Positions 1,301 through 32,165 of a stretch of 64,000 bases of DNA are shown piece by piece (the stretch's first letter is position 1; every line of letters begins with the position of its first letter). Made by a program: the position numbers and the translations under genes. Under the pieces are notes generated by a model. That model was not told where the DNA came from. It made no database searches and saw only the letters and a program-made list of their open reading frames with translations. Origin of the DNA: Candidatus Omnitrophota bacterium (GTDB taxonomy: Bacteria > Omnitrophota > Gorgyraeia > JACQQV01); assembly GCA_016206785.1 (NCBI GenBank), contig JACQQV010000031.1:35860-99859 (forward strand), in the 5' to 3' direction.

Positions 1301-4300
1301 TTACAGCCCTTTAAGCACCATGGTGGCGATCCGCTTCGCCTCAGCAAGTTCGTTTTGCACCTTTTCGCTTGTCATCAGTTTCCCGGCCTTACCGAATCCC
1401 TGCGTCACCTCGACAAGGAGGAGCTTTGTGGTTGTGTCAAGATCTTCAAGCCGGTCTTCCCTAAGGAGAGACATTTGCGAGGCAAGACTTGTCCCCAGAT
1501 ACACCTCTTTAAGGAAATCGACCGGTGTCTTCAGGGGGACCGTAAAAACCTTCTGCTCATTGATAGAGGAAATAAGGGCTTTGCGGTGGGGCCCAAATGC
1601 GAGAGAAACAGGAGAGAGAAGTCCATGCTTTTCGAGCCCGAACGCTTCTTGATCCGCCGGCGTCAAAAGAAAGACCGCGGATGGCTTTTCAGGGAGTTGA
1701 TCCAAACGGGTCTTGAACCGACCCGCCATCTTGTCGACCAAGGGAGCCCCATAGGCATAGCTCAATTCATCAAAGAGTTTTCTTCCTTCTGGCGTCGAAA
1801 ATTCTGGAGCGGCAAAGAATAAAAACCCTTCTGTCTGTTTTAAAAGGTAGGAAAGGACGTCTGGATTCGATGTTAAGTCCTCATCCAGGAGTCTCGATGC
1901 GCTTAACAACAGGATTGTGGATTGACTGATGTGATCCATCCGGCTTCCAATTTCAAGATGGAGGATGTCTTCCTCAACAGGCATCGGTATCCGTTTCGGA
2001 TCTAATTTTTTATTCTGACGAGAAAAGAGCTCCCGTACCAGGATGGTATAGAGCGTGCGGATCGAACCTCGATGCGCTTCGTCGGTTTTATTGAGTTCAT
2101 CAAGGAGGGGCTCCTCCTCAAACATCTTCGATAGGGTAATTGCTTTGGGACCCACGCTCTTCATAAGCGATGTGACCGCCTCCGCCAGCGAGACCTCTTT
2201 CTTCCCGCCGTCTTGGGCGTAAGATTGGACACGTTCCGCGAATCTGTCATTTTCTGCAAAAATCCAGTCGGGAAGTGGGAATCCTTTATCGACGAATTCC
2301 TCTTTGAGATATTCGGTTCGGCGCTCCGCCTCGGCGCCATAGAAGGCAGCGTCGTATCCGAGGACGGTATCGAGATTCGCACGGATGAGGGCGACGTTCG
2401 CCTTGTCCTCCGCCGTCATCTTCTCCGGTAAAAGATCGTCAAGAATCCGCTCAATTGCGGCACGGGTCGGCATATAACCGAGGGATGTTTCAACCGCCTC
2501 TCCCTTCCCCGTTGTATTCCCCTTGATCCGCTCGGTCGCCCAGATGACCGCAATCGTATTCCATGAATAACCGGGCCATAGGAAATTTCCATCGGCTCCC
2601 TTCTGGAACCAGTTCACATGGAAAAAGAGGGGTTTGTTCTCACCGAGTTTCTCGATCACGGCACGCTGATTGTCCAGATATTCCTTTTCACTGAGTCCAA
2701 AGAAAGGCTTCATCGCCACAGGGTCCGGCTCAACGGCACCCACCTTCACATCACTTGCGGCAGCGGTTGCCTCCCGGATGAGCATAAACTGATCGTAAAG
2801 ACCTGAGTTCAGATCCCGCGACTGATAAATGAGCGGGACCCCTTTGGACATCTTCCCCCCGACGAAGAAGGCATGAACGGTGAGGCCTTTCGGATCGTTC
2901 CATTTTGGCGAACGGTTCGGAACGTTCGTAATCCGGGTGGTAAACCGCGAGTTTGGATGGGCCCATTGGTCCACGTTCGGATGCGTCGCGGGACTTGCCG
3001 GCTCCCGTCTCCAGTTGATCCATCCCTCACCCGTCGGAAGTTCTTTTGTAAGTTTCCTCCACCACACTTCACCCGTAAAAACATTGTAGGCGACATTTGT
3101 AAAGACGGTTCCCGTATTGTCTCCGATCGCCTCCATGGCCACCGCATTGGAACGCTCATTGGTGTCGGGTGCTACCCCAAAAAGCCCACGTTCCGGGTTA
3201 ATGGCATGAAGTCTATGATCCTCTTCATCGACCCACGACCAGGTAATATCATCTCCAAAAAATTCTGTCCCATAGAGATGCTGAAGGGGTGCAGGAACTT
3301 GAAGCATCGCAAAATTGGTTTTGCCTGAAGCGCTCGGTGCCGCATCAAGGATTCCGAAAAGTCCACCGGTTGTTTTGTCACGGAATCCGAGCATCGCCAT
3401 ATGTTCGACAAGCCATCCCTGCTTGGCAGCAAGGTACCCCGCAATACGAAGCGAGACATGTTTTTTGCCGAGGATTGCATTCCCTCCGTACGCCGACCCA
3501 AAAGACCAGACTTCACCCTGATCGACCACATCGACAAAATAGCGATCATCATCTGTCAGTTTTTCAAGATCCCCTGTGGCCTGGACTCCCTCAATAAACT
3601 TTCCACCCTTTTCTTCCAAGGCAACCAACGCCTCCTCGCCCACGATGACCTCACCGACCGCTGCCATAATATCTTGATTGGTGAAAACGTAAGGATTGTC
3701 GGTTAACATCATCATCACTTGAGAAACAGGGGACTTTCTTAGTCCCATGAGGACCGGTACGACATACATCGTCTTCCCGGCATAAGAGCCCTTGACCTTC
3801 GCCTTCACTTCTGGAAGAAATTTCTCCGTGAGTCGATGATTGTTATACCGCCCTTTATCCGCAGGATTACTGGAGAGAACAAAGGTTCTCTTCTCCATCC
3901 GGGCCACATCGTTCACATCGGAGAAGGAAACCGAGGTACCGTTTTTCCGCCGGATGAAGTGCCCCGGACGTACGACCTCTTGGACGGCCTCCGTGAAGGA
4001 GAGGCCGTCGCCCGTAAGCCGCCGGATTTCTACCGCAACTTCTTCTTGCGTCCGCGCCACGCCAGCGATCGCTTCCTGAATGTCGTCCTGATTCAAAATA
4101 ACTTTGATGCTACCGGCGCCGACAAAGTCTACCATCTCCGAAACCCACCCCCGCGCCGCTTCGTTCTGGATTTTGGCTAACTGGATCGCCTGATTCTCTC
4201 TAAATTCTTTCCCACCCCCATCCGCGGCCCTCTTTGGAACATAAACGAGAAAAGCCATGTCCATGATGTTGGTCCCGGTGGGGCCTGTGATGATATGAAT

Positions 4301-7300
4301 TCCCATCTCTTTTGCAAAAGCCCCAGACTTAAAACGGCGAAGAAACTCTTCGGGATCAAGCCCCTTCTTTTGAGCCAAATCTACCGTCTCACTCGTTACA
4401 ACCGCCCCAGCACCCCCCCACCGACCATCCTTCCCATCGGTCGCCCCTGCCAAGAAGGTTGCCTTTCCGAGGTTCCTTTTCTCAAGTTGTAAGGAAGAAA
4501 GGAGATTCGCTACCGTTAAAGCAAGGTGACTATTTCTCCCACCCTCTCCTGCTCCAGGTGGTACCTCCACCTCTGGTTCCCCACCCCAAAGGAGCACGAC
4601 AGGCTCTTTTCCAAGATAGGGGGAGAGGGTTGATACCATTCGATCCGCTTCTTTTTCTACAGATTGGGTAAGGGGCTCGTCAATAATCACTGTCTTGAGT
4701 CCAAAGGAACGAGCCACCTCCGCCGCCCTCTCAAGACCGGGTCTATTTCCAAAGAGGAGCGCTGACTGAAAACGTTTTTGGTCGAGGAAGGTGTCACTAG
4801 GTCGAACCACTTTTTGTGTTTGTTCTTTGATGTTTTGTTCAATATCATCGCGTACCGTAAGAGGAACTTTGTCCCACAGTTTACGTTTTACGAGAATATC
4901 CTTCGCGTCTTGAAAAGTGCTTCTATCCCCAACGGTGTACCCGGAAGCGATATCTTCGAGTCGATCATACGGAACGTCAGACCCAAGGAGATTCACAAAA
5001 TATTTTGCATTTCCACCGAGTTTTAGAATCTCGGTCCGCTGATCGACATGCTTACGGATAATATTTTTGTCATGAATATTCATTCCTGAATCTTCAAGGG
5101 TTTGGTAGAGTTCCCGTAAATCCTTCAATGGAATTTCAGGAACGGGGAGAGCACCGATCGCGCTCCCTCCTCCCGAAATAAGGGTGATCACCATATCCTG
5201 AGGGGTCGCTTTGGCGAGGAGTTTCAATATTGCTTCAGTCCCCTCGGCCCCCTCCAAGCCTGGGGTTGGATGTTGACCGGCATACAGTTGAATGACACCG
5301 ATCTTGCCACGATATTTTTCCTTCTGTTCATGCCCATCGACACTCAACACACCCGCCGTGATCCGGTTCCCAAAAATTTTATGAAGCGCCTCGGCCATCC
5401 CGGCAACCACCTTGCCATATCCAACGACGTAAATATGTTTGACCTCGTTCAAATCATATTCACGTCTTTGGATCGTGAGTTTCTTTGAAAGAGCATCATA
5501 CACGACATTTCTTCTCACCGCATCCGAAGCATTGGCGCTTTGGATCGCCTCAAAGAACATCCGGTTTGCCAAAACCTCTTCAACCGGAACTCCAGGAACG
5601 GGATTCTTGGGAAAGGAGCCATCCAGAATTGCACTTAGGTTTTCAAACGCGATCTCCTGCATCCTGCGGCGGACAGGAATCACCGCGCTTCCTGTATGCC
5701 CTGTGATCTTTACATTGGAAAGTTCAAAAAGACCCTGCTTCGAACTTCCATTTGTATTGCTCTCATCAGTGAGCACATCGAAATGGCCCTGAGCCTCCGG
5801 GTGCTTTTTCAAATGAGCGATCATATCTTCTTCGTTTATAACGCCACCTCTTGAAGTATTGAGGTGGATCGCTTTAGGTTTGGTTTTCGCGAGGAATTCT
5901 CGATTCACCCAATGTTTGGTTTCTGAATTCAGATCAAAGAGGTAAGTGAAGATATCGGGTTCTTTAGCAAGGGTATCTTTATCGACCACTTGAATCCCCT
6001 GTCGAGAGGCGCGCGCGATATTATCGGAATTCTTTTCAAAAGTGAGCATCTTCATTCCCAATGCAGCCGCCCGTGAGGCAACCGCCTGACCGATCCGGCC
6101 GAATCCTGCGATCCCGAGCGTCTGTCCGGCAAGAGTCTTTTCAAACAATGCCCCTTCACGGCCCGATTTTACCCAAAGATCTTCAGGGTCAACAATGGTA
6201 TGGTGAACGCCATCAAGAGGAGTTGTTCCTGGAAGACGAATGACGTAATCTGCTTTCTCACGAAGTTCGTGGAGTTTTGGCACGATGGGAAAGTAGGTTA
6301 AACGAAGTTTCGATTCCTCTTCAGGAGTGAGCCGTTGATCCTCAGGGGCGAAGTAGACAATAGAAGCGATGCCGTGGGCGTTCGCAAATTCTGCAAGACG
6401 CTTACCCACCTCATTCATCCCCACAATCCCAAGAGAAGTTTTGACGCCGACCTCCGGATCGGCTCCCAATTGATCATGAAGAATGGTCGCCTCAGGGCCA
6501 ACACCACATCCACAATACTTCCCATCCCTGACAAACTGGTACATGTCACCCAAACGGAGGGACTGACGCAACAGTTCTCCCCAAAGGATCTCCGCCACCG
6601 CTTGCGGATGTTGGGGAATTGCTGCAAGAAGAACCTCTTCCAATTTCTTCTTTCCAATTTTTTCCTGAGAAATGGAATCGGTAAGGAGGTAGTTTGCGTT
6701 GAGCGCCTTCCCGATATTGAGCTCGGCCATCGCAATCGTTAAGGGGCTCCCGGTAGGCGTCTGTGCATTGGTCACAAAGATCCCCCGCTTCCGCGCCTCT
6801 TCGCGGTCCACATTGTTATACCCGATGCTGAATTGAAGAATCCCTTTTAAATGGGGGGAGGCGTCCATAACCTCTTTGTCAAAACTCAAATTGGTAAATC
6901 CGGTGATGTAGTCATAATCTCCCTTCCGGACAATTTCGAGAAATTGCTTTTGATCGAGGCGTTGATAGTAATCTTCTCCGGCTTTGAAAATTTCAGACCC
7001 GGTCCTCAGGACGTCGACATTAACGTCTCCTCTTTGTCTGTAGAGCTGGCGGACATTCTCATCCAAGGGCTCTATGACCAATACATTTGCTTTTGGATTT
7101 TCAACCCTCGTTCTTCGGACCTCGACTCCCGGCACGACCTCAACGATGGATTCCTCGGTAGGCTCCCGTACAACTTCTCTCCCTCCATCGCGAGAAGCTT
7201 CATAGGTCCCCTGTTCAAAGGAATGGCCTCCTGCACTCGGGTAGAAGCGGGCCATCCGGAATCGGTTCGAACCTTCTTCAATCGGATCAAACCGGTGGAT

Positions 7301-10300
7301 CCCCGTCTCTACAAGAGGTTCTGCGTAAATAGCGACTTCAAAGAGGATTTCATCACCGTCATTGATCACTTGATGAACCGGATTGATGACTCGCGTAATT
7401 TTTGAAATACTTCCCTTCCGAATGGATTCTTCCGAGACCTTTTCCAGAGAGACAATGTTTCCTGCTGTTTGTGAAACCATACGAAAACGCCTCTCCTTCC
7501 CACGCCCTTCACCGACGATGCAGAAGACACAAGCATTTCCACCATGATTATGAATAGGATTCCCTTGACCGGGAAGATACGCGATAATGCTTAATTCAAA
7601 ACGCTTTTGGGGATCGAGGTGAATCACAACGCGGGGGTAATCGGTAGGACCTTTGAGGCCTTGGACCTTTCGCTTGGCAATGATATCGAGGATGCCGATC
7701 TCTTTTAAGAAATCTGGGGAGCGCGGAAGGAGTTCGTCGGTTAAAATCCTTGCCAGGGTATCTGCAAGACTCTTCTGTTCTTTATCCGATAACTTCTGAC
7801 CTTTCTTTAAAGAATCTACCTCAGCCGTCACACGATCCACAACCGCCTGCGTCACAGCGCCATATTTTGTCCCCCCATCCGTTCCAGATTCATACTTGGC
7901 CGATTTTTCCGCCGCCTGAGAGGCCTTCCACTCTTCCACCGTCGGAAGTGGGAAGAAGGCATCGAAAAGCGGTTTCACAATTCGCCCATCCTGAATCGCC
8001 TCGAGAATTTTTTCTTTCTCGGGGCCAGGATCTTTATCGGCATCATTGAATCCAACTTGAAGATCCCGACGGATGAATTCATAAAGCGGTCGTGTGTTCC
8101 CAAGGAGGTGGCCTCCCCCTTGTTGCAAAGCTCTTTCTTTAGCCTGAGGGAGTAACAGATCAAGACGCTTCGCAAGAAGTTCCATAAACACCTTATAATA
8201 TCCAGCGACAGCCTTGGCGTCATTGACAAGGTTGACCTCCACAGACCCAACCGCTTTCGGATCGCTCCGAAGAATATCGTCAATTTCGCCCGCCAGCGGA
8301 TCAAAAAGCGGCTTATATCTTTCAGAAGAAGTAAATGCATAATAATAAGGAGGGATCGTTTTCGCTTTCTTGACCAAGTGCGCGGTCATGAGAGGTGCGA
8401 TGTCCTTCCAATTCGTTACGACACTTGGCAGTGTCTCCTCAACGGTTTTTGCAATCGCTTCCTCTGTGGCGTTCTGGTAGATCCGTTCAATATTCCGGAG
8501 GTCAACCGCCTGAGCCGTGGAATAGAGATGATTTACAAGCATGAGTTGAAGAACTCCAACTGCCTTTTGCGTATACCGCGCAGAAATCAGGGCCAGCGAA
8601 TTGACGTCTTGATTCCCCAGCTCTGCATTTTTGACGTGAGTGGTCACTGGATTCGCCAGATACTCCAGCTCCGATTGGTAACTCGCCATTCCGATTTCTG
8701 AACCCTTATCCCCAAAGTCGAGGTTCGGGTCAGATCCTGCGAGATTTTTAAGGAGGCCGTTGTTGTAGGCGTCGCTGTGAAGTTCGGTATATTGGGCAAA
8801 AAGAATCTGGCCGATCGCGGAGAGGGCAAGACGTGTATTCTCCATGGCGACACCGAGGGGTGTTCCCTGGAAATTCCCTCCGTGAAGCACGCGGTCTCCT
8901 TCAACATCAATAATCGGATTGTCGGTCACAGAGTTCATTTCGGTCGTCACCGCTTCGGTTGCCGCCAAAACGACCTCGAGTTGCGGCCCAATGGCTTGGG
9001 GAGCGGTCCGAATTCCGTAACGGTCTTGCCGCATCCTCCCCCTTTCAATCTTTTCTTTCCCGTCCAGCTCATCCCGTGAGAGCCGACTTCCCTTAAGAAG
9101 ATGCAGAAGGTTTTCACCCACTTCAATCTGTCCTAAGTGTGGTTTGATGGCTTGAATGACCGGATCGTAACTTTGATTCGTGCCGATAAGCGTTTCGACG
9201 CTCAAAGCGGTTGTCGCCTGGGCAAGCAGAGCGAGAATGTTGGCATCATACAACACGTGGGTTGCCAAGGCATTGGCGACAGAGGTGCCATTGACAAAAG
9301 CAAGGCCTTCTTTAGGCCCAAGTGCAATCGGTTCAATGCCGGTGATCTGAAGTGCTTCTCTGGCTGAAATTTCTTTTCCTTGATAGCGTGCCTTTGCCGT
9401 CTCTTTCCCCATGAGCACCGCAAGCATGTGAGAGAGCGGTGAAAGGTCGCCGCTCGCCGTGATCGAGCCTTTATTGGGTACAACAGGGGTAACCCCCTTG
9501 TTAAGGAGTGCCACAAGATTTTCCAAAACAAGCCAACGGAGTCCCGAATATCCTTTAATATTGGAATTGGCGCGGATGAGCATGGCACCACGCACCTCAT
9601 CCTCCGGAAGCGTCGGACCAAAGCTCGAATTCAAGAAACGGATCAGTTCTGCCTGCAGTCTTTGCACTTCATTTGTCTGGGCGCCCGCGCTTCCGCCATA
9701 TCCTCTGTTGACGCCATAAATATCCCTTCCTTCGGCAATCGCTTTCGCAAGCCATTCCACAGAAGCATCGACCTTTGCTCGGACCTTTAGAGAATCCGTC
9801 AAAGAAACCGGTACACCATGCTGAGCCACTGCGGCCACATGGGGAATAGTAAGGTCTTCCCCGGTGACCACAACTTTATCGGTACGTTTCAATCCTTCAG
9901 CAAGGGCAAGTACAAGATCCCGATGCTTCGTCTGTTTGACAATATTTCTGAGTCCTTTCGTGTCTCGATAAGTTTTCTCCACGAGTTGCGCTTTTTCTCT
10001 TTCAACTTGTTTTTCTCTTTCCTTCCGGGTATACAATTCTTCAATCTGTTTTGCGAATCGCTTTTCAATCTGTGGACGAATGAGAGAGCCTTTTGGTGAA
10101 AGCGGAAGCGGTTCTTCGCCTGGCGCCATAATCACAATATTTTCCCGACGGACCCTTGAATAATCAAGGAAGTATTGATTAACATCCTCGAAGAGCCCCC
10201 AGATCGCTTCCTCAATGTCCATCCACTGTTTTCCTTTGAAAGCCGCATAGTTCGGTTGGACAATGGCGATATTGTAGGGTCTCAAATGCCCCACCAAGGC

Positions 10301-13300
10301 AGCCTTTTGAATCAAGGGGCTGTCTTCAAGCGCCATTTCAATTGGAAGCGGATTTGTCTTTTCGCCTGTCGGATGTGCAAAAATTTCGTCGTTCCGACCC
10401 ACATAGACATATCCCCCCTCAACCTCTTGGAAAAGATCTCCCGTATGGAAACGTTCAGGTTCTTTAAAGACATCTTTTGTCGCCTCTTCATTTTTAAGAT
10501 AGCCGGCGGTCACGGTTGGACTATTGTCAAGGACGAGCTCTTTCCCTTCAAGACCCGGGGTAGAAACAAAGTCGGCGTTCACCCCAGGGATCACCCGAAG
10601 AGTCCGCCAATCGCGCTTTTTCGGGTCCCCCAAGAAGATCGCGCCTCCCACATCGGTCATCCCCTCGCCTTGGATGACATTTACCCCCTTCCCTTGGAAA
10701 TATTTTCCAGTCGCTTCTGAAAGAACAACGCCACCTGACATGATAAATTTAAGGCCCCCCAATGTATCAAGTATCGTCGGATCTTTCTCTGCCATTGCCT
10801 GGAATCCTTCGAGCATCCACGGAACGGTGTAGAAAACATTCGCCTTGGTTTCTCTTAAGGAGGCGAGGAGTTGATCGGGCGTCGGCGGTCCCGGTTTTAA
10901 CCGTGGGAAGGCATATTTGGCACCGACGTACAGATTGCCCAAAAACTCAAAAGGGAGCCCCATGACATGAAAGAACGGAAGCCAACCGAGGGTCATATCT
11001 TCGTCGGTAAAATCACCCTCCCAGGCGAGCCGCGAGGCCTCCCGGTTATAGAGGAGATTCTGATGGGTCAGCGGAACTCCTTTTGGCAGTTTGGTGGTTC
11101 CTGAGGTATAAAGGATCAGTGCAACGTCCTCCGGTTTTATATCAACAGGCGGGATTTCGACAGGGGCCTCACCCTCTTGCCAAGTCGCTAAAGAAATTTC
11201 ACCCTCCTGAAGTTTTTCAGGAGGAAGTGCATCCAGTACGAAGATTTTTTTGATGTTTAGATTTTTAGATTTAAGGTCACGGGCGGCCTGAAGGAAAGGA
11301 CCTGCGGAGACAATAAGGGAAGTCGCATCAGAATTGGACACCATATGTTCAAGCACGGGAGGTGGCGCACGAAAGCTCATTGAGACAACCGCCCCTCCCA
11401 ATCCCCAAACCCCCATCGCGGTTTCCACAAATTCAGGACGATTCGGTGAAAGGAACGCGATCCGATCTCCCGGCCGGACCCCTTCGGTATAAAGCGCTTT
11501 CTTCAGCCGTGCCACCTCTTTGTCAACTTGATTGAAGGAGACCTCTTGGTATCCCTGCGTCGATGGAACGACGAGAAATCCCCGATCGCCATATCTCTCC
11601 ACCTGCATCGCCCAAAGATCCGGAATCACTCCCGTCTTCAGGGTCAGTTCTCCAAGGCGAAGGTTCCGGTAGGCACCGTCTTTGGCGAACTTACCCGCAT
11701 GTTTCTTGATGATTTCCTGATGGAGCGCCGGTTCAATATTTTTCCCCGAAATCATCAAAACGACGGTCCTGGCGTTTTCAAAAAGATCGCGATGTGCAAG
11801 AAGTGCTGCCACAGAAAGGACCCCCGCTCCTTCCGCCACAATCCCTTTTCCTTGATAGTGCTCCTGGTGAAGGAGTGCGATGGCGCGTTGGATATCCTCT
11901 TCCGAAACTGACACGACACTTCCAACTTTTTCTTGAAAGATCTTAAAGGGGATGACGCCTGGGCGTTTGACCTTCGCGCCGTCCGCAAGGGTCTCCGGGG
12001 AATCAATTTCAACGATCTTTCCGCTTCTCAGAGAACGAAGCATGCTATCTGATCCGGATGCCTGAACCCCGATTGTTTCTGTCCGCGGAGAGAGGGCACG
12101 GGTCACCGTCGCAATTCCGGCCAGATACCCTCCGGTTCCTACAGGCGCAACGATAACGTCGGGAGTCACTCTGTCTTTTTCGAGAATCTCCAGCGCAACA
12201 GTCCCTTGTCCGGCGATGACCCAAGGTTCAACGGGCGAGATGAAAATATTGCCGCGCCGGAGCGCCTCGTTATACCAGGCTTTCCGGAGGACATCGTCAA
12301 ATTTACCAGTGACCGTTTCCAACCGTCCTCCCAGTCTCTCGATCGCCTGACGCTTCGTAGGAACGATATCCTTCGGAACAAAAATCAGATTGTCGACTCC
12401 AAAGCGGTTCGCAGCAAGGACGACCCCTTGGGCATGATTTCCCTGGGAAGGGGCGATCACGGTGATACCCTTCCGATCAGCGAGCGGAACATTTTCAAGG
12501 ACATGAGCCACTTTCGCAAGTGCCCCGCGCCACTTGTATGAACCGATGGAGGACTCGCTGTCCAGCTTCAGGTAGATGCGTCGGTCGGTTCCTTTTCCAA
12601 AGAAATATTCGCTCAGAACCGGCGAATAAATGAGGGGCGCTTCTTCCAAGTAAGGGCCCATGAGACGATAAACTTCCCGAACCCGATCGATATCCACGTA
12701 TCCGTAGCGGGGCTCAAGACGTGTCCACCGATCCTCTGAAACCGCATGGGGGGAATCGGGAAGGGTGGCAACTTCTTTCAAGGTTACGAAGACTTTCGCA
12801 AGCCGCAGATCGATAAAGTAAGGATCGAGGGTTTCAAGATAGGTCAGGTCGATCGTCTTTTCCGGCACCACGCCCCCCTCCTGCGTCAGAAATCTCACGA
12901 TCTGGATTATTTCTTCGTAAAGGGCTTCCTCATATTGGGTCGGGTCTGACACCTGACGGGACTTAAGGTAAGCAAGTTTATCGATCGGCTCCAAGAGTCT
13001 CAAGGAACCGTTGGGGGTATCCTTGCTCCGACTCATTGTGCCGATGATACGGTCCTGAGCCACCTGACCATCCTGCACGATTTGGAAAACGACCTTCCCG
13101 TCTCCTCGCATCTGGATGGTAAAGGTGACAAATTCATAAGGCCTATTCCCCACGTTGGATTCGAGGAGTCCTGCCACTTCCTGAATCGTTTTTCCTCCAC
13201 CGTCGCGGGCCATGGCAGTGCTGACTAAAAACATTCTTCCTCTCCCTGTCACATCCCCCGAAGGACCGATTGAGACTTCATTAGCCCAACTGCTTCTTCC

Positions 13301-16300
13301 TGTAAAAATATTTCCTTTCCGATCGGTAAGAATACGTAGTCTCCCGTTGACAATCTCAACGTCTGTAATCTTCGGGCCTTTCTTTCCAGAAGGAGGTCGT
13401 GCAAATCGAAGAACAACCACTTCATCTTCTGGGGTCACCACCATGGCCAAAGCGGGATCTAATGCAGAGGTCTTTCTGGATAATCCTCTTATCGGAAAAC
13501 GAATGGGATTCTGCCAATAACTATCTTTCACAATCGCGACCCACTCTTCTCCTGCAAAGATCTTTGTCCCCCCTGTGGCAGGCCTCACTCCTTCTTCCCC
13601 TTGGACTCTGCTTTCATAATAAATAAAAGGCCAACTCCATTTTCGATGCTCCATTTCAATAGAAGCACCTCTTTGAGAAAGGGTCCCAGGATCTGTGTCA
13701 AATGTGGAGTGCGTCAATATCAAGGGAAAACTCTCTGGAGAAGAGATGCTGTCTTGAATTTTTTCTTCAAGGAGGTCATGAAGATGACTGTGTGGAAGGA
13801 CCTGCTGCCCAAATGCGTAGGAAGGGACGTCGACACGGAGTCGATCTCTAAATTGTTCAAGATTTAACCCTAGATTAAAGTGGTATCTGACACCCCCTCC
13901 AATATCTTCTGCAAGGAGAATCCCCTCTTGGACCAAAGGTCTAAGTGCTCCTAAGATCTCTCCTTCGCTCCTGATTTGTTGAAAGACCAAGGCCTCGCGC
14001 AGCCCACCATCCTTCGCAAACTGCGGGGGGGCTTTTTCCACTGCCACAGGCTTCCCGGCCTTTGCAAATGCCGTCGTGATCATGGCGACGACACGTTTCA
14101 GATTTCTGGCGATATCCTCTTCGCTGATCGGGACATTGGGATTGTTCAAATCGGCGGCCAGGTAATTTTGCGCAAGCATCCTGTCATGGATGGAAACGAA
14201 ATCGACCTGATCCGCATAGGAAGTTGCAAAAAGGTATTGGTCGGGATTGTCCGCGCGGACGCCAAGTTTGAATCCCTTGTGACTCCGCCTTAAATCGGTC
14301 TCCTCCAAAAGATCATGGGCGATTTTTAAATGAGTCACGTCACGGACATCGGTGAGTTGTATCAAAATGTTGTCAATGCCACCTCTCCGCGCCTCCTTCA
14401 CCGCCTCAAACTCCCAGCGGAGAAGAGTCCGGTATTCATCACTCGCAACATACCGGTAAAATCCTCCGAAACCGAGGGGGGTGTTTTCTTCCTTCTTGTC
14501 AAAAACAGTTCCATACCGAAGGGAAAGATATCCTTCGCTATCCAAATCGCTGGTCTGATACACAAGCTGCTCGCTCTTTTTCGACGAGACCGCTTTGGCA
14601 AAGAACGCAATGAGTTGGGTGCGGTAGTAATCCTCCGCTTTGATGAACCCCTTCTGGCCGATAAGCGTACGAAGGGTGGTCTGAATCTTCCGGATACCTT
14701 CCAAGTCCCTATTCAGTCTTGTGAGGAGTGCCGCCTTTTCATTGGCTATCTGAAGAAGTTCAATCCTTTTTTGCTCCTGCCCATCACCCAACGACTTGAG
14801 ATTGCGTTCGGCAGCAATTCGATCTTCCCTGGTTGTTTCAATTTGATGCAAGATTTCTTGTTCGATCTGATGGAGTTTCCCGCTGTCATAATAAAGGAAA
14901 GCGAGGGGGTGAATTTTCAGGATGTCACGGTAGAAATCGGAAGCCCGTATCGTCTGGATCTCAAGCCGCTCCGCGGCCACTTCTCTTTCGGGGATTTCGA
15001 TGGCGTCAGGCGTGGTCACCTCTCCACGGGTCAAAGGAAGTCTCCCTTCATAAATTTTTCCGGTCTTAAAATCAGCAGTAACAATTTGTCCTTCCTTCAA
15101 GTCTCCTCGGATACCGACGAGGACCGGTTTCCCTTGCGCTTCAGCTTCTCGGAACCAGGGACGGTCAAGGTCTTGGGCCTCAAAGAAAAATGCCCCCGCT
15201 TGATTGACAACACCGTTGGGAACGGCGATCCTTTCGGAACCCTTTCGAAATAGAACAAAATCGCCGAGTTGGATCCGACGGAGATCTTCCGGATCTTTGA
15301 CCACGACCATGTGACGGTCCCCCGCACCCTGTGTGGCAAGCGTTTTCCCAAAAGCGACCTCATGCGCTTCACGAAGGGATGCTTCTGAAATGGAAGAAAG
15401 ATTTAATTCCGCCTCGGAAATCAGTTTGACGGCTGCAAGGAACCCACGGACGTCTGTTCCGGTTGAATCAAGGAGTACGGCAATCTCGCGGGCCGCCTGA
15501 AGGTTATACCCCGGTTCGCTCGGATTGGTGAGTTTGATGATCGCCTGACCGCAGAGACCGCAGGTAAACTTCACGTTGCGCCTCTGGCGTGCTTCACGTA
15601 CCGCATACACCACATGACGGATGCTATTGACGATAGCAGGATGCGATTCTTGGAAAAGGGCTTTCACCAAAGGTTCTTCACGCCCCGCGCGGCGTGTTGT
15701 TTGTGTTAAGTCATTGGTTCCGAACGAGAAAAAAACATCCTTTCCGGTTTCCTTCGCGTATTGTGCCAAAAGATCCGCAAATTCATCCGCCTGAATCACG
15801 TTTGAAGGGAGCTCAACCATCATGCCGACGGTATGAAGCGGCATTTTGACTTCCTGGAAGCGTTTAAGACCTTTCCGGAGTTCTTCCGGCGTCCGGACAA
15901 AGGCGAAGAAGGCCCCAATATTGGTATAACCGGCCTCGTAGACCCGCTTGAGCGCTTCTAATTCCAAACCGAGAACTTCACGGTTCTCTTCCTTTAATAG
16001 CCAACCTGTTCCACGGTCTCCCAACATCGTTGCGCGCTCACGGGAACCGAAGACACCGCCCCCTGTAATCTGGAGAAGCTCGTTCTGTTTGAAATCGTTG
16101 AATCGGTAGAGAACTTTTTGATGAATCCCATTTGCCGCCGCCATAGAGGCGAGACCTTCATAGAATTTTCGGACGTAATATTCACGGGCACTGGGATAAC
16201 CGGCCACACGCCTCTCGATTTGCGCAACCAACTGGGGATGGGCACGGAGTTTTTCAACGTCTCCGCGCTCATCCATAGTCAGGGAGGTGTTGGAATCTTT

Positions 16301-19300
16301 TTCGAGTCCCTTCAGATTGTCGTAGGCGAGGATCGCCCTCGGATGAATTCCGACGCCGACAAGAATAAATTCTGCCCGGGCAAGACTGATCCCGTAAAAA
16401 GAAGGGTAAAGGGCAAGGTTGGAAACTTCCTGCATCGCCCGGGGATTTGCTACAATCAGTCCCGGTTTTGTGAAATGGGTCTCCGGAAGTTGGTCCACAT
16501 CGATCTCAACCTGCTCGGTTTCGATGGGGAGTGCTCCTTTGTAAATCCTCCCCGTATTGGCATCGACCGTGACCCAGTCATCTTCGGTAAAAAGATAGTC
16601 CCTCGCCTCCCTGTAGTGCGAAGGGGCTTCCTGCCGAAGTCTTTCCAAATCTCCATTAATTCCGGTGATCGTCGCCAGATTCAACTCGCGGCTCACAATT
16701 GCGGCATGAGAGGTGTCTCCTCCCTCTTCAGTAATAAAGCCGCGGACCCCCTCGGTTTTCATGAGCGGTTCCTGTCCGGGGGTCGTAAAGTCTGTCACAA
16801 TGATAGTATCCTCCCCAGACTTTCGGAAGTCAGCGACTTTGTTGCGGATACGGTCCTCTTCCCGGGCATAGTCTCCCTTGAAACTCCTCGCCTCGCGATC
16901 CAGAACGATGACCCGTCCGGTAAACGCATTCCGCCCCTGAACGCCTTTGACCAAAAGTTTCCCTGCCCCTTCCGCCTCCTCCGCCACCTCCTCCGGAACA
17001 AAAGTTCTTTTAATGGAAACATTCCGCGCCCCGATGTCGGAAGGGGTGGTAACGGCTCGCGACTGCACAAGACCCACGGCGGAGCGTTCCATCGCCCCTT
17101 CCATATCGCGGATCCCTCCGTAAAAATCGGTAGCCGCTTTGAGTTGTCGGGTAATTTTGATGATCTCTTCGTCGGTTGCAGCGAATTGATTTCTTTTTTC
17201 AGGAGGGACATGGGTCCAAATGAGCCGCTGTTTCGGATCTTCGAGAAGCGCATGGATCGCGTGGGTCAGTTGCAAAAAGTTTTCTCGCGGAAGGACAAGA
17301 TGTTTTGAAACGGCTGCCGGTAGATGAAGTCCCTCTGCAATCGCCTTCTCGGCCCTCTCTTCAATCTCCTCGTGGATGCGCACAATGGTCCGAAGAAGGG
17401 GAGCGATCTGATTCCCGTTATAAATCTTTCCAAGGAGTTCAGGGGAAAGGGCGACCCCCCTCGGCTGGAACTCTTGCGCGATATAACGGCGGACCGCTTC
17501 CATGAGTTGTGCAAGCTCCTCTTGGGTGATTCCCGCCTTCTCAAGAATCTCCTCCAGATACACCATTTGAGTCCGCTTCGCCCCAAGCTCTGCTTCAATG
17601 ATATTGACATGTTCCCGACCCTCTGCATCCGTGAAGAGATGAACTTTGTAGGCGTCTGGAACCACCATTCCCCCCACAATCGCTTCTCCCAACCCGTAAG
17701 AAGTGGTAATCCGGAAAATCCGTCCTTCGGTGAGTCTTTCTTCGGGGGTATCCTGAAAGCTCCTCGCCGTGAAACCGGTGGTCCGATCGAGGCTGAAAGC
17801 CACAAGGGAGACGTCGCTTCGAATCATTCTTTGAATGGGAACTGCAAGAGAAAGGCGCGTTGGATCAATGTAAGGCTTTCCCGCTTCTTCCAAAAGTTTC
17901 AAGAAACGGTCCGCAATCCTTGGGTGCCCGGTCCGGATTTCCACCAGGGCGTTCCGCATCTTTGCATGGGGAACATACGTTCCCTTTTCAAGATTTTCGC
18001 CGATTTCCCGTACCTGTTGCCGCGGCGTCTCCTTCAATGCCGAAACAAGCTGAGAAAGATCCTGCGGGGTTTCAATGGCGCTGATGAATGCAAGGAAGAT
18101 TTGCGTATCCCGGTAGCTGATGGCGTTCGGTCTAAAAAGACTTGCCAAGACATCCCGATATCGCTCGAGGACAAGGGAGTACCCCCTCACATTCAAAAAG
18201 GTCTCCTGTTGCCCGGCACTGGAACCGGAGGAGATCTCCACTTTCAACCCCGAGCGGAGCGGCTTGGAAGGATCAATCTCCACATCTTCGACGGTGCCGG
18301 AGCTTCGTACGGCGACAGGGAGATTCATATCGGGATAACTGTTTTCCCGGCTGAGGACCATATAATTTCCGACAACCTCCTGTTCAAGATCTTCCGGCAT
18401 CACCGCCTGCTCAATCGCCTTTTGAATCGCCTCTGAAGCATCCTTGAGGGCATGAGGGTCGGTGACATCTAAATCGGAAAGGAGCCGACCGATGGTATCC
18501 CTGATTTCAGGATTTGCATCGAGGAAACGCTGGTATCCTGCTGCCGTGACAATGAATCCTGGTGGGACAGGAACCCCATGACCAAACATTTCCCCAAGAT
18601 TCGCACCCTTCCCGCCCACAATCGCCATATCATGACGCCCTACCTCTTCAAACCACACCGTCAGTCTTTGAGAAATATCTTCAGCCCTTTTGCCTTCGCC
18701 ATCTCTGGCCGCGAGACCCCATTGTTCTCCTCGGGGATGGTTTAGAATGCGCACTTGCGATAAAGTCCTCGGCAGCCTTCCGAAAGCCACCTCATTGACA
18801 AGTTGAAATTCGGCCTTCGATTCTCTATGGTCGATTTCAAACTCTATCACCCAAGAGTCTGCATCCGCTCTTCCCATTTCCCGTAATGCGATGCCCCGAT
18901 GATGACCTTCCGCGATGAAGAAACGGGCCCGTTTGGGTTCCGGCTTAATCACAATAAGCGCTTCACCTTCGCCCTGTTTAATTTCTTTTTTACGTACCTC
19001 AATTTCTTCTCGAAAAGCGGTTGGGGCGGCGGGCGCCAACACACCTAACGAGAGTGTACGACGATAAACCTTCATGGGTACCCCATGAATTCTTTCAAAA
19101 TCTCTTGCTAACCGGTATGCCAAATCTTTGGAGTAATCCGCAACGGGAATTCGGTAAACGCTTCCTCCCGGACGGATTCCCAGTATGATGCGGCGGTCGC
19201 CAATATACAAAGAGACCGCATCATCACCCTTAAAGTATGTGGGTTCATGAATAAATAGTGCGGAGAGCGAGGGATCCTTCGCCCGCGCCTTTTGGAGTGC

Positions 19301-19558
19301 ACGGAGGAGACCCCATCGGCTGGCACCTTTCTTCTTCGCGCCCGTGAGAATTGTTGAAACTTTTCTTAGGAGGGGGCCCGAAAGCTCGTTAAAGAGTTGT
19401 TGCTCGCCTCCGTCCTTTGCGCCGATGACGCTGTGGGTGCGAAGATGTGAAGAAGAAGTGAAGATATCCTGCAAGGCATGTGCAGGCAGGGTATTGGTAC
19501 AAAGGAATGCTTGAAGAATGATCCAACTCGAAACTTTAATCCAAGTTTTAGACTTCAT
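1301..19558 (-). CDS. Giant (6085 aa) signal-peptide-bearing multi-enzyme-domain fusion protein
   Basis: A single stop-free frame spans 18,258 nt. The N-terminus [28 protein letters not shown] looks like a signal peptide. I checked the motif positions against the DNA by back-translation: GGDTSHAAI at 16697-16723, SYKWRGA at 12521-12541 and KGSITASGD at 9446-9472. The sub-domains are listed below as separate features. Confidence 0.85.
   Translation of the reverse strand: [6085 protein letters not shown]
1304..2458 (-). other. C-terminal region (~385 aa) of the giant protein with no recognisable family
   Basis: I recognised no known motifs in this region. It is mixed charged and hydrophobic, and it ends ...[11 protein letters not shown]. 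Confidence 0.3.
2459..4171 (-). other. GTP-dependent phosphoenolpyruvate carboxykinase-like domain (aa ~5130-5700), paralogous to pckG at 55807..57579
   Basis: [38 protein letters not shown] aligns with [37 protein letters not shown] in pckG. The P-loop is [13 protein letters not shown], with Ser in place of the pckG Cys. Other matching segments are [32 protein letters not shown] and [19 protein letters not shown]. Confidence 0.8.
4259..5521 (-). other. Glycerate 2-kinase (DUF4147 + MOFRL family) domain (aa ~4680-5100)
   Basis: [54 protein letters not shown] and [10 protein letters not shown] match the conserved motifs of GckA/TtuD-type glycerate kinases. Confidence 0.65.
5609..6991 (-). other. 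D-isomer-specific 2-hydroxyacid dehydrogenase (glycerate dehydrogenase/hydroxypyruvate reductase-like) domain with a ~170-aa insertion (aa ~4190-4650)
   Basis: The catalytic domain is [42 protein letters not shown]. The NAD-binding motif is [33 protein letters not shown] and ITGHTGSA carry the catalytic His. Confidence 0.7.
7289..7636 (-). other. Cysteine-dioxygenase-like cupin domain (aa ~3975-4090)
   Basis: [25 protein letters not shown] parallels the CDO type-I motif IHDHxxSHCFxKxLxGxLxExxF. Confidence 0.45.
8279..9856 (-). other. Aromatic amino-acid ammonia-lyase (HAL/PAL family) domain with an intact MIO-forming Ala-Ser-Gly triad (aa ~3235-3760)
   Basis: [15 protein letters not shown] carries ASG at aa 3368-3370. 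[26 protein letters not shown] and GIRTAPQ are typical of histidine/phenylalanine ammonia-lyases. Confidence 0.75.
10019..11521 (-). other. Adenylate-forming (AMP-binding, acyl-CoA-synthetase-like) domain (aa ~2680-3180)
   Basis: Core motifs are present: [14 protein letters not shown] (A3), [24 protein letters not shown] (A7/A8) and [15 protein letters not shown] (A10 PxGK). No carrier-protein domain follows. Confidence 0.7.
11609..12631 (-). other. PLP-dependent (fold type II) threonine/serine dehydratase-like domain (aa ~2310-2650)
   Basis: SxKxRGA with the PLP-binding Lys in [15 protein letters not shown]. It also has [11 protein letters not shown], the glycine loop [12 protein letters not shown], and [11 protein letters not shown]...[11 protein letters not shown] at the C-terminal side. 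Confidence 0.7.
14009..15361 (-). other. Degenerate second PEP-utilizer half (mobile-domain-like plus TIM-barrel-like) lacking the catalytic His and with TNDLTQ replaced (aa ~1400-1850)
   Basis: [12 protein letters not shown]...GDFVLF...[15 protein letters not shown]...GKPVLVGI...[10 protein letters not shown] parallels the first swivel domain, but GGDTSHAAI is replaced by [30 protein letters not shown] parallels [10 protein letters not shown]. A coiled-coil-like segment at aa 1550-1640 lies between them. Confidence 0.45.
15524..18661 (-). other. Complete pyruvate-phosphate-dikinase/PEP-synthase-like module (aa ~300-1345): ATP-grasp N-domain, phospho-His swivel domain, PEP-binding TIM barrel
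   Basis: [14 protein letters not shown] matches the PPDK_N nucleotide-binding motif. [21 protein letters not shown] matches the PEP-utilizer mobile domain with the catalytic His. [10 protein letters not shown] plus FTCGLCGQ matches the PEP-utilizer TIM-barrel motif with the catalytic Cys region. The domain order is the same as in PPDK/PpsA. Confidence 0.75.
18839..19201 (-). other. ParB/sulfiredoxin-like nuclease-fold motif region (aa ~120-240)
   Basis: [17 protein letters not shown] resembles the ParB-like nuclease domain signature DGHHRlxAxxxxG. The assignment is tentative. Confidence 0.25.
19475..19558 (-). other. Predicted signal peptide of the giant protein (aa 1-28)
   Basis: Positively charged N-terminus (MKSK), then a hydrophobic core WIILQAFLC, then an AHA-like cleavage motif. 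Confidence 0.5.
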
Positions 19559-24008: not shown

Positions 24009-24100
24009 CTCACTCACCTCCAAATTCGGCTGGGGGTCTTTTGGGTCTCCACCTCTCACCTTGGGAAGAAGGAAGCCAAAGCCCCCGTCGCCGAATCGAA

Positions 24101-24137
24101 ATAAAAAACCAGGTTGCCCTGTTCCTTTAGGCAACCC
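24101..24137 (-). terminator. Intrinsic-terminator-like hairpin plus U-tract inside the 5' leader of the giant-gene operon (attenuator candidate)
   Basis: On the minus-strand RNA the structure is GGUUGCC-uaaaggaacag-GGCAACC followed by UGGUUUUUUAUU. On the plus strand the stems are GGTTGCC (24113-24119) and GGCAACC (24131-24137), with the A-tract at 24101-24110. It sits about 95 nt upstream of the start codon at 24008 and about 180 nt downstream of the predicted promoter. Confidence 0.5.
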
Positions 24138-25495: not shown

Positions 25496-25776
25496 GTTCG
25501 TTTCAGTTTAATAAACTCGTAGGCGAGAAGTCCAATATACGTGCCGAAGAGTCCTAAAAGCCCCGCCCGGCGGCTCACCCATTTGGCGCTCACGATAACA
25601 AAAATTCCGGCAAAAAGCAAAAGGTATCGGGACGAGAAAGCCAGAAGAAAAGAAAGGTTCGGTTTGCGAAGGCTCCCTAAACGCATGACCCACTTTTTAA
25701 GGAGAAAAAAATTAAAAAAAGAGAGCCCCGCCCCAAAGAAAAGTCCGCCTAAAGAATAGATCGGTTCAGGGAACAT
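25486..25776 (-). CDS. Small hydrophobic membrane protein (hypothetical)
   Basis: This ORF has two or three predicted TM helices (LGGLFFGAGLSFFNFFLL and LLLFAGIFVIVSA...LLGLFGTYIGLLAY). I recognised no family, and its 3' end overlaps tRNA-Val by about 10 nt, so it may be spurious. Confidence 0.3.
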   Translation of the reverse strand: MFPEPIYSLGGLFFGAGLSFFNFFLLKKWVMRLGSLRKPNLSFLLAFSSRYLLLFAGIFVIVSAKWVSRRAGLLGLFGTYIGLLAYEFIKLKRTGE

Positions 25777-27972: not shown

Positions 27973-28014
27973 AAGACTAAAGACCCAAGACAAAAGACTC
28001 TCGAGAAAAACAGA

Positions 28015-31900: not shown

Positions 31901-32165
31901 TCGGCAAAAGCGCGTCGGGCCTCTCCCGCTCAATAATCTTTTCGATGACCTCTGCCGTGACCGGTTCCAGATAGGTCCGATCCGCAAATTCCGGATCGGT
32001 CATGATCGTAGCGGGGTTAGAGTTGACCAAGACCACCCCATACCCCTCCTCTCGAAGGGCCTTGCAGGCCTGGGTTCCAGAATAATCGAACTCGCAGGCC
32101 TGACCGATAATGATCGGTCCGGATCCGATGATAAGAATCTTTTTGAGTTCCGTTCGTTTAGGCAT
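28932..32165 (-). CDS. carB: Carbamoyl-phosphate synthase large subunit
   Basis: 1077 aa with two ATP-grasp halves and the classic CPSase L-chain sequence ([30 protein letters not shown]...). Confidence 0.9.

What the first reader, a model, noticed from the sequence alone, without database searches (positions are those of the whole stretch)
14009..15361. Catalytically dead repeat of the PEP-utilizer swivel and TIM-barrel halves immediately after the intact PPDK-like module
Residues ~1400-1500 reproduce the swivel-domain scaffold (TQGAGDRHMVVV / GDFVLF / GKPVLVGI / DFKTGKIYEG) but replace the phospho-histidine motif GGDTSHAAI with AGAFFFEAQ. Residues ~1690-1810 reproduce the TIM-barrel region with FSFGTNDLTQ degenerated to FVSIHDRMLAQ.

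An intact unit followed by a pseudo-unit suggests internal duplication followed by neofunctionalisation, for example into a regulatory or scaffolding role.
Basis: partly seen in the sequence, partly recalled or inferred. Interest (0 to 1): 0.55.

Follow-up and report, generated by a model that had tools for sequence, protein, structure and literature searches.

The report
Conserved dead duplicate inside PEP synthase
Right after a normal-looking PEP synthase, a 6,085-residue multi-enzyme protein of an Omnitrophota bacterium carries a second copy of that enzyme's last two domains; the copy has lost every catalytic residue yet is conserved in dozens of related proteins, so it is probably a built-in structural partner and not a decaying relic.

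Summary
Residues 1390-1841 of the giant ORF (window 1301-19558, minus strand) form a second swivel-like domain and a second PEP-binding TIM barrel directly after an intact PEP synthase (PPS) unit.

- **The barrel** passes Pfam's own threshold.
- **The swivel copy** is invisible to Pfam. A family profile and an AlphaFold2/Foldseek comparison recover it.
- **Catalysis** is lost: the phospho-histidine and all PEP/Mg-binding residues are gone.

The interpretation needs correcting. This is not a private or recent duplication. About 30 of the best 150 relatives, mostly Omnitrophota proteins with generic annotations, carry an intact PPS followed by a degenerate second barrel. Catalytic columns are kept in 27 of 28 first barrels and lost in all 34 second barrels. 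The copy has its own conserved motifs.

An AlphaFold2 model of active barrel plus pseudo-unit gives pTM 0.88, against 0.69 for the pseudo-unit alone. That suggests one rigid body. My best reading is a built-in structural partner for the active barrel, possibly mimicking the homodimer these enzymes need. That step is inferred, not shown.

In passing, a D-G-G motif marks module boundaries in the giant protein.

The parts
1301..19558 (-). Giant ORF, 6,085 aa. It has a signal-peptide-like N-terminus and then tiled enzyme domains: PPS, PLP-dependent enzyme, AMP-binding ligase, aromatic amino-acid lyase, cupin, 2-hydroxyacid dehydrogenase, glycerate-kinase-like domain and GTP-PEPCK.
   Evidence: ORF list and translation. 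Pfam hits run from 1e-16 to 2e-145 in one frame. No internal TM-like segment was found. The signal peptide was judged by eye only.
17459..18661 (-). Unit 1, ATP-grasp (PPDK_N) domain, aa ~300-700
   Evidence: Pfam PF01326 at 209 bits. NCBIfam PEP synthase NF005057 at 559 bits, below its cut-off of 598.
16514..16876 (-). Unit 1, intact swivel (phospho-histidine) domain, aa ~895-1015, with GGDTSHAAI at aa 946-954 (16697-16723)
   Evidence: Pfam PF00391 at 66 bits. Motif position.
15404..16513 (-). Unit 1, intact PEP/pyruvate-binding TIM barrel, aa ~1016-1385, with all catalytic columns present (R1061, E1063, R1152, R1182, E1249, N1282, D1283, R1293, C1336)
   Evidence: Pfam PF02896 at 130.8 bits. 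Catalytic-column table. Foldseek TM 0.81 (normalised by target) to PPS C-terminal domains 8a8e and 9dae.
15035..15391 (-). Pseudo-unit, degenerate swivel domain (swivel'), aa ~1390-1508. The phospho-His position is occupied by Pro1467 within QDLDRPWFR.
   Evidence: No Pfam hit. Family profile alignment to PPS 8a8e 376-485. Swivel-only profile at E 1.4e-5. AF2 pLDDT 76-95. Foldseek match to 2e28 over 117 columns at rmsd 2.6.
14036..14968 (-). Pseudo-unit, degenerate TIM barrel (TIM'), aa ~1531-1841. Substitutions against the catalytic residues are R->Q1668, R->G1699, E->D1770, N,D->R1793,M1794 and R->L1804. The Cys strand is replaced by VAVE, and the last helix is missing.
   Evidence: Pfam PF02896 at 47.6 bits. 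PDB PPS at E 4e-12 with residue alignment. Catalytic-column table. AF2 and Foldseek rmsd 3.0-4.2 to PPS and Enzyme I barrels.
14654..14878 (-). Long two-helix hairpin inserted in TIM' (aa ~1561-1635). It is the counterpart of the helical lid between strands 2 and 3 of the canonical barrel. This long form is seen only in this protein and in P0002.
   Evidence: AF2 helices 177-204 and 211-251 of model 1 with pLDDT >= 95. Alignment A1, columns 340-430.
14003..14011 (-). D-G-G junction (aa 1850-1852) that ends the pseudo-unit and the whole PPS module
   Evidence: Similarity to the 60%-identical relative P0002 stops here, and P0002 also has DGG at this point. P0059 has DGG at the same alignment columns.

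Best explanation
**What it is (shown).** Residues 1390-1841 are an old, inherited and catalytically dead duplicate of the last two domains of PEP synthase: a swivel domain without the phospho-histidine, and a PEP-binding TIM barrel without its Arg, Mg-ligand or Cys residues. It sits directly after an intact PPS in one D-G-G-delimited module.

**How it works (inferred).** The dead barrel, with the dead swivel as a connector, packs against the active barrel as one rigid body. It serves as a built-in structural partner. The most likely role is to stand in for the second subunit of the barrel-to-barrel homodimer that PEP-utilising enzymes need, so that a PPS embedded in a long fusion protein can work without finding a second copy. 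It neither carries phosphate nor binds PEP.
For: **Homology and fold**
-, as detailed in the observation check.

**Loss of catalysis**
- Catalytic columns are R,E,R,GRG,E,GND,Q,R,CG in 27 of 28 first barrels. They are lost in all 34 second barrels.
- No conserved His occurs in the swivel' column across 17 second units.

**Conserved, not decaying**
- 372 HMMER hits, with about 30 tandem-barrel proteins among the best 150.
- Pfam reports two PEP-utilizers_C stretches in P0003, P0005, P0006 and P0018.
- The copy has its own motifs: VYxTxDLxSxD, ExNPPLGxxG, PxNYLF and FVxxDERRLAQxYLAAD.
- Identity to four relatives is 34-40% in TIM' against 54-70% in TIM1.
- The AF2 model has pLDDT 88.
- First- and second-barrel subtrees run in parallel.

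**Rigid body**
- AF2 of aa 1010-1852 gives pLDDT 89.2 and pTM 0.88. The pseudo-unit alone gives pTM 0.69.

**The barrel is the constant part**
- One subgroup (P0005, P0006, P0018 and others) has the second barrel 45-100 residues after the first, with no room for a swivel'.

**Background**
- Enzyme I autophosphorylates only as a dimer formed through its barrel domain (PMC5537066).
- From my own knowledge, PPDK and bacterial PPS are also barrel-mediated dimers.
Against: - No coordinates or PAE were returned. I could not check that the TIM1-TIM' contact resembles the known homodimer interface.
- pTM 0.88 rests on a 13-sequence alignment and may be over-confident.
- The neighbour-joining tree is rough, and degenerate domains attract each other.
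- Nothing here excludes that the full protein still dimerises or that the pseudo-unit binds something else.
- The N-terminus looks like a signal peptide. If so, the whole ATP-dependent module may sit outside the cytoplasm, where its function is unclear.
Confidence: 0.55

Rival explanations
1. Regulatory module. The dead barrel, or the dead swivel, binds a metabolite, or docks on the active barrel or ATP-grasp domain as a decoy, and so tunes the activity of the intact PPS.
For: - The loops of the former active-site face keep a recognisable conserved shape (ExNPPLGxxG, TxDLxSxD, DERRLAQ), so a pocket may persist.
- The compact AF2 arrangement would also fit a docked regulator.
Against: - All three phosphate-binding Arg residues, both Mg ligands and the Cys are gone.
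- The nearly invariant residues of the family are those also conserved for fold reasons in canonical barrels.
- No new invariant polar cluster is seen.
- The swivel' is dispensable in one subgroup.
Confidence: 0.2
2. Functionless relic. A duplicated half-enzyme that lost activity and is drifting, kept only because deleting it from a long ORF is not selected for.
For: - It evolves faster than the active barrel: 34-40% against 54-70% identity.
- The swivel' varies much in length and is absent in some relatives.
- The last helix of the barrel is missing.
Against: - It is retained in frame, with a confidently predicted fold and family-specific motifs, across relatives down to 22-30% identity and in at least two subgroups.
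- A drifting domain would not keep pLDDT 88 or a Pfam score above threshold in 11 of 17 members.
Confidence: 0.1
3. A still-active enzyme with different chemistry. The second barrel has been recruited to another reaction of the pyruvate-kinase-like barrel superfamily, using new residues.
For: Weak Foldseek matches of the barrel to citrate-lyase-like and pyruvate kinase barrels. Some conserved Asp, Glu and Arg residues in DERRL and TxDLxSxD.
Against: - Those matches are far weaker than the matches to PPS and Enzyme I.
- The candidate residues vary across the family (HDRM here; DERR, IRRK, NRRK, DQRR, DEGR elsewhere).
- No metal-binding pair is conserved.
Confidence: 0.05

Closest known systems
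PEP synthase (pyruvate, water dikinase; PpsA), e.g. PDB 2OLS, 8A8E, 9DAE
   Same: Unit 1 has the full ATP-grasp, swivel and TIM-barrel order with every catalytic residue. The pseudo-unit is most similar to PPS among solved structures, by both sequence and fold.
   Different: Described PPS has one swivel and one barrel. Here a second, dead swivel and barrel follow. Unit 1 carries large insertions and scores below NCBIfam's equivalog cut-off (559 against 598). The whole thing is one module of a 6,085-aa fusion.
Extra C-terminal swivel-type (PEP-utilizers) domain of Bacillus/Geobacillus pyruvate kinase, PDB 2E28
   Same: A swivel-fold domain appended to an enzyme where it is not the phospho-carrier of the main reaction. 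It is the best isolated structural match of swivel', at 117 columns and rmsd 2.6, and the profile also hits it at E 0.0014.
   Different: It is attached to pyruvate kinase, not to a PPS, and has no companion dead barrel. Its role is recalled from memory and was not tested here.
Enzyme I of the sugar phosphotransferase system: barrel-mediated homodimer required for autophosphorylation
   Same: Same swivel and barrel folds. Activity depends on barrel-barrel dimerisation (PMC5537066), which is the model for the proposed role of TIM'.
   Different: Enzyme I pairs two active chains. Here the proposed partner is a dead barrel in the same chain. The interface was not examined.
Omnitrophota long 'multi-enzyme metabolic cluster' proteins and Archaeovorins
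   Same: The window comes from an Omnitrophota MAG (GyrB 100% identical). Many distinct enzyme domains are tiled in one ORF. PPDK-type domains are reported as frequent in such proteins (bioRxiv 10.1101/2023.11.21.568195; bioRxiv 10.64898/2026.06.07.730766).
   Different: At 6,085 aa it is below the 10,000-aa cut-off used in those surveys. No TM helices were found. Neither paper, in the passages I read or searched, describes a dead second swivel and barrel or a D-G-G junction.

Membership tests
PEP-utilising enzyme, PEP-binding TIM-barrel domain (Pfam PF02896), applied to aa 1531-1841 | Profile match above Pfam's gathering score | tested here: met
   47.6 bits against a cut-off of 22.8, profile positions 20-252 of 293. 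11 of 17 related second units also match.
PEP-utilising enzyme, PEP-binding TIM-barrel domain (Pfam PF02896), applied to aa 1531-1841 | TIM-barrel fold superposable on PPS and Enzyme I C-terminal domains | tested here: met
   AF2 pLDDT 88. Foldseek gives 9dae at rmsd 4.2, 8a8e at 3.4 and 2xz7 at 3.0 over about 200-220 columns. The last helix after strand 8 is absent.
PEP-utilising enzyme, PEP-binding TIM-barrel domain (Pfam PF02896), applied to aa 1531-1841 | Catalytic set: three phosphate-binding Arg, Glu and Asp Mg ligands with Asn, and the proton-donor Cys (residue roles from my own knowledge of PPDK and Enzyme I) | tested here: not met
   The columns read Q, G, D, R, M, L and a gap, where unit 1 has R, R, E, N, D, R and C.
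PEP-utilising enzyme mobile (swivel) domain (Pfam PF00391), applied to aa 1390-1508 | Profile match to the Pfam model | tested here: not met
   No hit even at E <= 10. 0 of 17 related second units hit at E <= 0.01.
PEP-utilising enzyme mobile (swivel) domain (Pfam PF00391), applied to aa 1390-1508 | Homology detectable with a family profile, and the swivel fold | tested here: met
   The A1 profile aligns through 8a8e residues 376-485 within an E 9e-41 match. A swivel-only profile reaches E 1.4e-5 at the swivel position of canonical PPS. Foldseek matches 2e28 over 117 columns at rmsd 2.6.
PEP-utilising enzyme mobile (swivel) domain (Pfam PF00391), applied to aa 1390-1508 | Phospho-acceptor His in a G-G-x-T-S-H motif | tested here: not met
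   The His column is Pro1467. No conserved His occurs in this column in 17 relatives.
PEP synthase as a working enzyme (NCBIfam NF005057 / TIGR01418), applied to unit 1, aa 300-1385 | Score above the curated equivalog cut-off | tested here: not met
   559.4 against 598, and 513 against 739.75, with the match split into four stretches by insertions.
PEP synthase as a working enzyme (NCBIfam NF005057 / TIGR01418), applied to unit 1, aa 300-1385 | Three-domain order with catalytic His and barrel residues | tested here: met
   PPDK_N, PEP-utilizers and PEP-utilizers_C in order. GGDTSHAAI at aa 946-954. All barrel columns conserved. Enzyme activity cannot be tested with these tools.
Omnitrophota multi-enzyme giant proteins (bioRxiv 10.64898/2026.06.07.730766) | Omnitrophota origin, with many distinct enzyme Pfams tiled and no single Pfam dominating | tested here: met
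   GyrB is 100% identical to a Candidatus Omnitrophica MAG protein. 16 Pfam families were reported across the ORF, with only the PEP-binding barrel occurring twice.
Omnitrophota multi-enzyme giant proteins (bioRxiv 10.64898/2026.06.07.730766) | Length >= 10,000 aa, the catalogue threshold used there | tested here: not met
   6,085 aa.

The most novel reading that the evidence does not exclude
The D-G-G / D-G-A motifs are the boundaries, and perhaps the double-glycine-type cleavage sites, of exchangeable enzyme cassettes in Omnitrophota long proteins. Under this reading the giant ORF is a polyprotein. The PPS cassette (aa ~52-1850) carries its own dead barrel so that, once released or held as a single chain, it works as a self-contained pseudo-dimer.
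Probability: 0.15. Interest if true: 0.75.

Novelty: new variant of a known kind. Interest (0 to 1): 0.42.

Why it matters
PEP synthase, PPDK and Enzyme I are textbook swivelling-domain enzymes that act as barrel-mediated dimers. A widespread, conserved form in which a dead copy of the barrel is fused behind the live one would be a natural single-chain version of that dimer. It would offer a handle for asking what dimerisation contributes to catalysis.

It also shows that the enzyme domains of Omnitrophota long proteins are not all equal. At least one is a pseudo-domain that annotation pipelines label simply as PEP-binding.

The D-G-G junctions, if they are real boundaries, would give the first sequence-level rule for cutting these giant proteins into units. 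The published surveys say such a rule is missing.

Tried and rejected
- **Word-indexed protein search.** The pseudo-unit found only one weak Enzyme-I-like hit, and the 17-sequence alignment found nothing. This is a prefilter failure, likely from the coiled-coil insert, not absence. The full HMMER scan found 372 relatives.
- **Genome-collection scans.** The single-protein scan found nothing. The first alignment was too diverse to search with. A tighter alignment found one locus, the contig of P0004.
- **Pfam at relaxed threshold on the swivel copy.** Nothing apart from a weak coiled-coil IFT20 match on the helical insert.
- **AFDB search.** I wanted to look for other tandem-barrel models, but the library was not available.
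- **Foldseek of the 843-residue model.** It only re-found single barrels, so it says nothing about the interface.
- **Chance similarity.** Rejected.
- **A gene on the opposite strand.** The ORFs at 14330-15253 and 13976-14293 (+) have no family hit and lie antisense to a well-supported coding frame.
- **D-G-G enrichment by count alone.** This is weak: 7 observed against 2.25 expected, and other tripeptides are more enriched. The case rests on position and on conservation in relatives.
- **Literature searches.** Searches for a duplicated PEP-binding domain, or for PPS in Omnitrophica, gave nothing relevant.
Full report
**Where the finding sits.** The coordinates 14009-15361 are residues 1400-1850 of a single 6,085-aa ORF on the minus strand (1301-19558). 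Pfam tiles this ORF with unrelated enzymes in one frame:
- a PEP synthase-type unit: PPDK_N aa 313-671, swivel aa 916-1003, PEP-binding barrel aa 1050-1339
- a PLP-dependent enzyme
- an AMP-binding ligase
- an aromatic amino-acid lyase
- a cupin
- a 2-hydroxyacid dehydrogenase
- a DUF4147/MOFRL pair
- a GTP-dependent PEP carboxykinase

The window is chromosomal and lies next to the replication origin. On the minus strand it holds dnaA, dnaN, gyrB, gyrA and a pyrimidine operon. On the plus strand it holds yidC, mnmG and parAB. GyrB is 100% identical to a protein of an NCBI MAG named Candidatus Omnitrophica bacterium, and the next best hits are Omnitrophota.

**Checking the observation.** The similarity is not chance:
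- BLASTP of the intact unit against aa 1381-1851 gives E 9e-8 over about 290 residues.
- Against shuffles, the barrel-barrel score has z = 10 and the swivel-swivel score z = 5.5. The latter comes only from the last strand: VTVDANTGRIYKG against VTADFKTGKIYEG.
- Pfam's PEP-utilizers_C model matches aa ~1600-1841 at 47.6 bits, above its cut-off of 22.8.
- Solved PEP synthases match at E 4e-12, with SIGSNDLTQ aligned to SIHDRMLAQ.

The swivel copy is beyond Pfam, with no hit at E <= 10. It needed relatives.

**Relatives.** The word-indexed search failed. A full HMMER scan of 1.84 billion representatives with aa 1385-1905 found 372 proteins at E <= 0.001. The best is P0002, a fragment 60% identical. 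Then come long proteins P0003, P0004, P0007 and P0008 of 1.7-3.7 kaa.

I mapped the five domains of the giant protein onto the best 150 hits with local phmmer. About 30 of them have an intact ATP-grasp, swivel and barrel followed by a second barrel-like domain. Pfam independently reports two PEP-utilizers_C stretches and one swivel in P0003, P0005, P0006 and P0018.

The named members are almost all Omnitrophota MAG proteins with generic labels: PEP-utilizing enzyme, PEP/pyruvate-binding domain-containing protein, putative PEP-binding protein, or hypothetical protein. One is annotated as phosphoenolpyruvate synthase of Candidatus Desulforudis.

**Dead, but conserved.** I aligned 28 first barrels and 34 second barrels to one profile and read the columns of the catalytic residues. 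The residue roles are from my own knowledge of PPDK and Enzyme I. The columns are the two strand-end Arg, the Arg of LGxRG, the Glu and the Asn-Asp of GTNDLTQ, the Arg of the following DR, and the Cys of CGQ.
- 27 of 28 first barrels have all of them.
- No second barrel does.
- The second barrels keep only fold-type residues: the Gly residues of LGxxG, and the Leu and Gln.

In this protein the substitutions are R->Q1668, R->G1699, E->D1770, N,D->R1793,M1794 and R->L1804, and the Cys strand reads VAVE.

An alignment of 17 second units (A1) shows motifs of their own:
- GAAxR
- GDF
- RxGA
- VTIDFxxGxIYxG
- HPLAF
- VYxTxDLxSxD
- ExNPPLGxxG
- PxNYLF
- FVxxDERRLAQxYLAAD

The first four are the skeleton of a swivel domain. 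A profile of A1 aligns in one piece to PEP synthase 8a8e residues 376-744, covering swivel plus barrel, at E 9e-41. A profile of the swivel columns alone finds the swivel position of canonical PPS at E down to 1.4e-5.

The His column holds no conserved His. In this protein it is Pro1467.

**Structure.** AlphaFold2 on A1 gives pLDDT 88.2 and pTM 0.69 for aa 1385-1852. Foldseek against the PDB returns these matches:
- PPS 2ols at E 1e-14 over 469 columns
- PPDK and Enzyme I chains
- isolated PPS and Enzyme I barrels at rmsd 3.0-4.2
- for the small domain, the swivel-type C-terminal domain of pyruvate kinase 2e28, at 117 columns and rmsd 2.6

The barrel copy is complete up to strand 8 and then stops. 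The final helix is missing. The helical lid between strands 2 and 3 has become a long two-helix hairpin, seen in this long form only here and in P0002.

**Age of the duplication.** In a rough neighbour-joining tree, all first barrels form one group and all second barrels lie outside it. Sub-groups recur in both halves: the giant protein with P0003, P0004, P0007 and P0008; P0005 with P0006; P0012 with P0015; and the P0016/18/20/21/24/26/84 set. That pattern is what an old duplication inherited together would give, but degenerate domains can attract each other in such a tree.

Against four relatives, the active barrel is 54-70% identical and the dead barrel 34-40%. The copy evolves faster but is clearly constrained.

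One subgroup (P0005, P0006, P0018 and others) has the second barrel 45-100 residues after the first, with no swivel copy. In P0003, P0004, P0007 and P0008 the swivel copy carries a helical insert of about 100 residues. The barrel is therefore the constant element, and the swivel copy is variable.

**How it most likely works.**
- **Shown:** it is a conserved non-catalytic duplicate that always follows an intact PPS.
- **Supporting but indirect:** an AlphaFold2 model of active barrel plus pseudo-unit (aa 1010-1852, 13-sequence alignment A3) has pLDDT 89.2 and pTM 0.88. That is well above the 0.69 of the pseudo-unit alone, which points to a confident, compact arrangement of the three domains.
- **Inferred:** the dead barrel supplies, within one chain, the partner that the active barrel otherwise finds in a second subunit. 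Enzyme I autophosphorylates only as a barrel-mediated dimer (PMC5537066). From my own knowledge, PPDK and bacterial PPS are also barrel-mediated dimers.

I could not inspect the interface, because no coordinates or PAE were returned and Foldseek on the large model only re-found single barrels. This step therefore remains a hypothesis.

The rivals are listed with their tests in the rival explanations: a ligand-sensing or decoy regulator, a drifting relic, and a barrel recruited to new chemistry. The loss of every phosphate and metal ligand without a new invariant polar cluster argues against the first and the third. The depth of conservation argues against the second.

**Comparison with what is known.** The parts are ordinary PEP-utilising-enzyme domains, and Pfam detects the second barrel. 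The host protein belongs to the recently described class of Omnitrophota long multi-enzyme proteins, in which PPDK-type domains are reported as frequent. It is shorter than the 10,000-aa cut-off used there and has no TM-like segment.

I did not find any description of a PPS with an appended dead swivel and barrel. Source annotations do not mark it either. I therefore rate it a new variant of a known kind, of moderate interest.

**Seen on the way.** The pseudo-unit ends exactly at a D-G-G (aa 1850-1852).
- The same tripeptide, or D-G-A, occurs at aa 49, 2119, 2627, 3894, 4124, 5113 and 5783. Each time it lies outside Pfam domains, in a loosely similar context ([FY]-A-[KRQ]-D-G-G-x-[KR]-E), and with varying codons.
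- The 60%-identical relative P0002 shares the pseudo-unit up to its own D-G-G and is unrelated afterwards.
- P0059 has D-G-G at the same alignment columns.
- By count alone the enrichment is weak.

West-Roberts et al. note that cleavage points of such proteins are unknown and that double-glycine-type C39 peptidase domains are common in them. Whether D-G-G is a cleavage site or only a cassette seam is untested.

Noticed in passing
window 19406-19414, 14003-14011, 13196-13204, 11672-11680 (D-G-A), 7871-7879, 7181-7189, 4214-4222, 2204-2212 (aa 49, 1850, 2119, 2627, 3894, 4124, 5113, 5783 of the giant ORF): A D-G-G (once D-G-A) tripeptide sits at every recognisable module boundary, in a loosely conserved context and with varying codons. 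Relative P0002 shares sequence only up to its own D-G-G, and P0059 has D-G-G at the same alignment position. This is possibly a cassette seam or a double-glycine-type processing site.
   Followed up: partly
window 19593-24134 (-): The neighbouring 1,513-aa ORF is a sibling of the giant protein. It has a hydrophobic N-terminus, the same leader (SHLRTP...DGN..QLIDELRG), a GlmS-like amidotransferase and SIS region scoring far below the glmS cut-off (140.7 bits against 381), and a D-G-G at aa 1171. A genuine glmS lies at 39373-41208 (-).
   Followed up: partly
window 2306-3997 (-) and 55807-57579 (+): The giant ORF ends with a GTP-PEPCK-like region (aa ~5188-5751), while a separate stand-alone PEPCK gene sits 52 kb away in the same window. 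The fused enzymes are therefore extra copies, not the cell's only ones. By eye, the fused copy keeps the P-loop but has Ser where the stand-alone copy has Cys.
   Followed up: no
window 19385-19474 (-), aa 29-58; also P0059, P0016, P0018, P0020, P0024, P0026, P0032: After the hydrophobic N-terminus, many PPS-bearing long proteins share a short [S/D]-x-L-R leader. In this protein and P0059 it reads SHLRT......KDGG.
   Followed up: no
window 18659-19411 (-), aa 50-300: An N-terminal domain of the PPS module has an EGHHRG motif and no Pfam hit. Among the 150 relatives it is shared with P0059 (aa 53-275, E 7e-47), with weaker partial matches in P0012 and P0015.
   Followed up: partly
window 13202-14002 (-), aa 1853-2119: The module between two D-G-G motifs, directly after the pseudo-unit, has no Pfam family and no relative among the 150 proteins examined.
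   Followed up: partly
window 47829-53585: Likely replication origin. dnaA and dnaN run leftwards and yidC and mnmG rightwards. Gene orientation and GC skew both switch sign near 50-52 kb.
   Followed up: no
window 25776-38540 (-): A pyrimidine biosynthesis gene run, judged from the translations by eye: pyrR-like, pyrB, pyrC, carA, carB, pyrK-like, pyrD, pyrF and pyrE. It is interrupted by two ORFs with no Pfam hit (32168-33406 and 34925-35704).
   Followed up: no
P0003 aa ~1250-1345, P0004 aa ~1745-1820, P0007 and P0008 equivalents (alignment A1, columns 70-160): In the closest long relatives, the dead swivel domain carries a helical insert of about 100 residues between GDFLVL and DRAGAV. This protein lacks it.
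   Followed up: no
window 14330-15253 (+): A 307-aa ORF lies antisense to the pseudo-unit. It has no family hit and is most likely a by-product of the coding frame opposite.
   Followed up: yes
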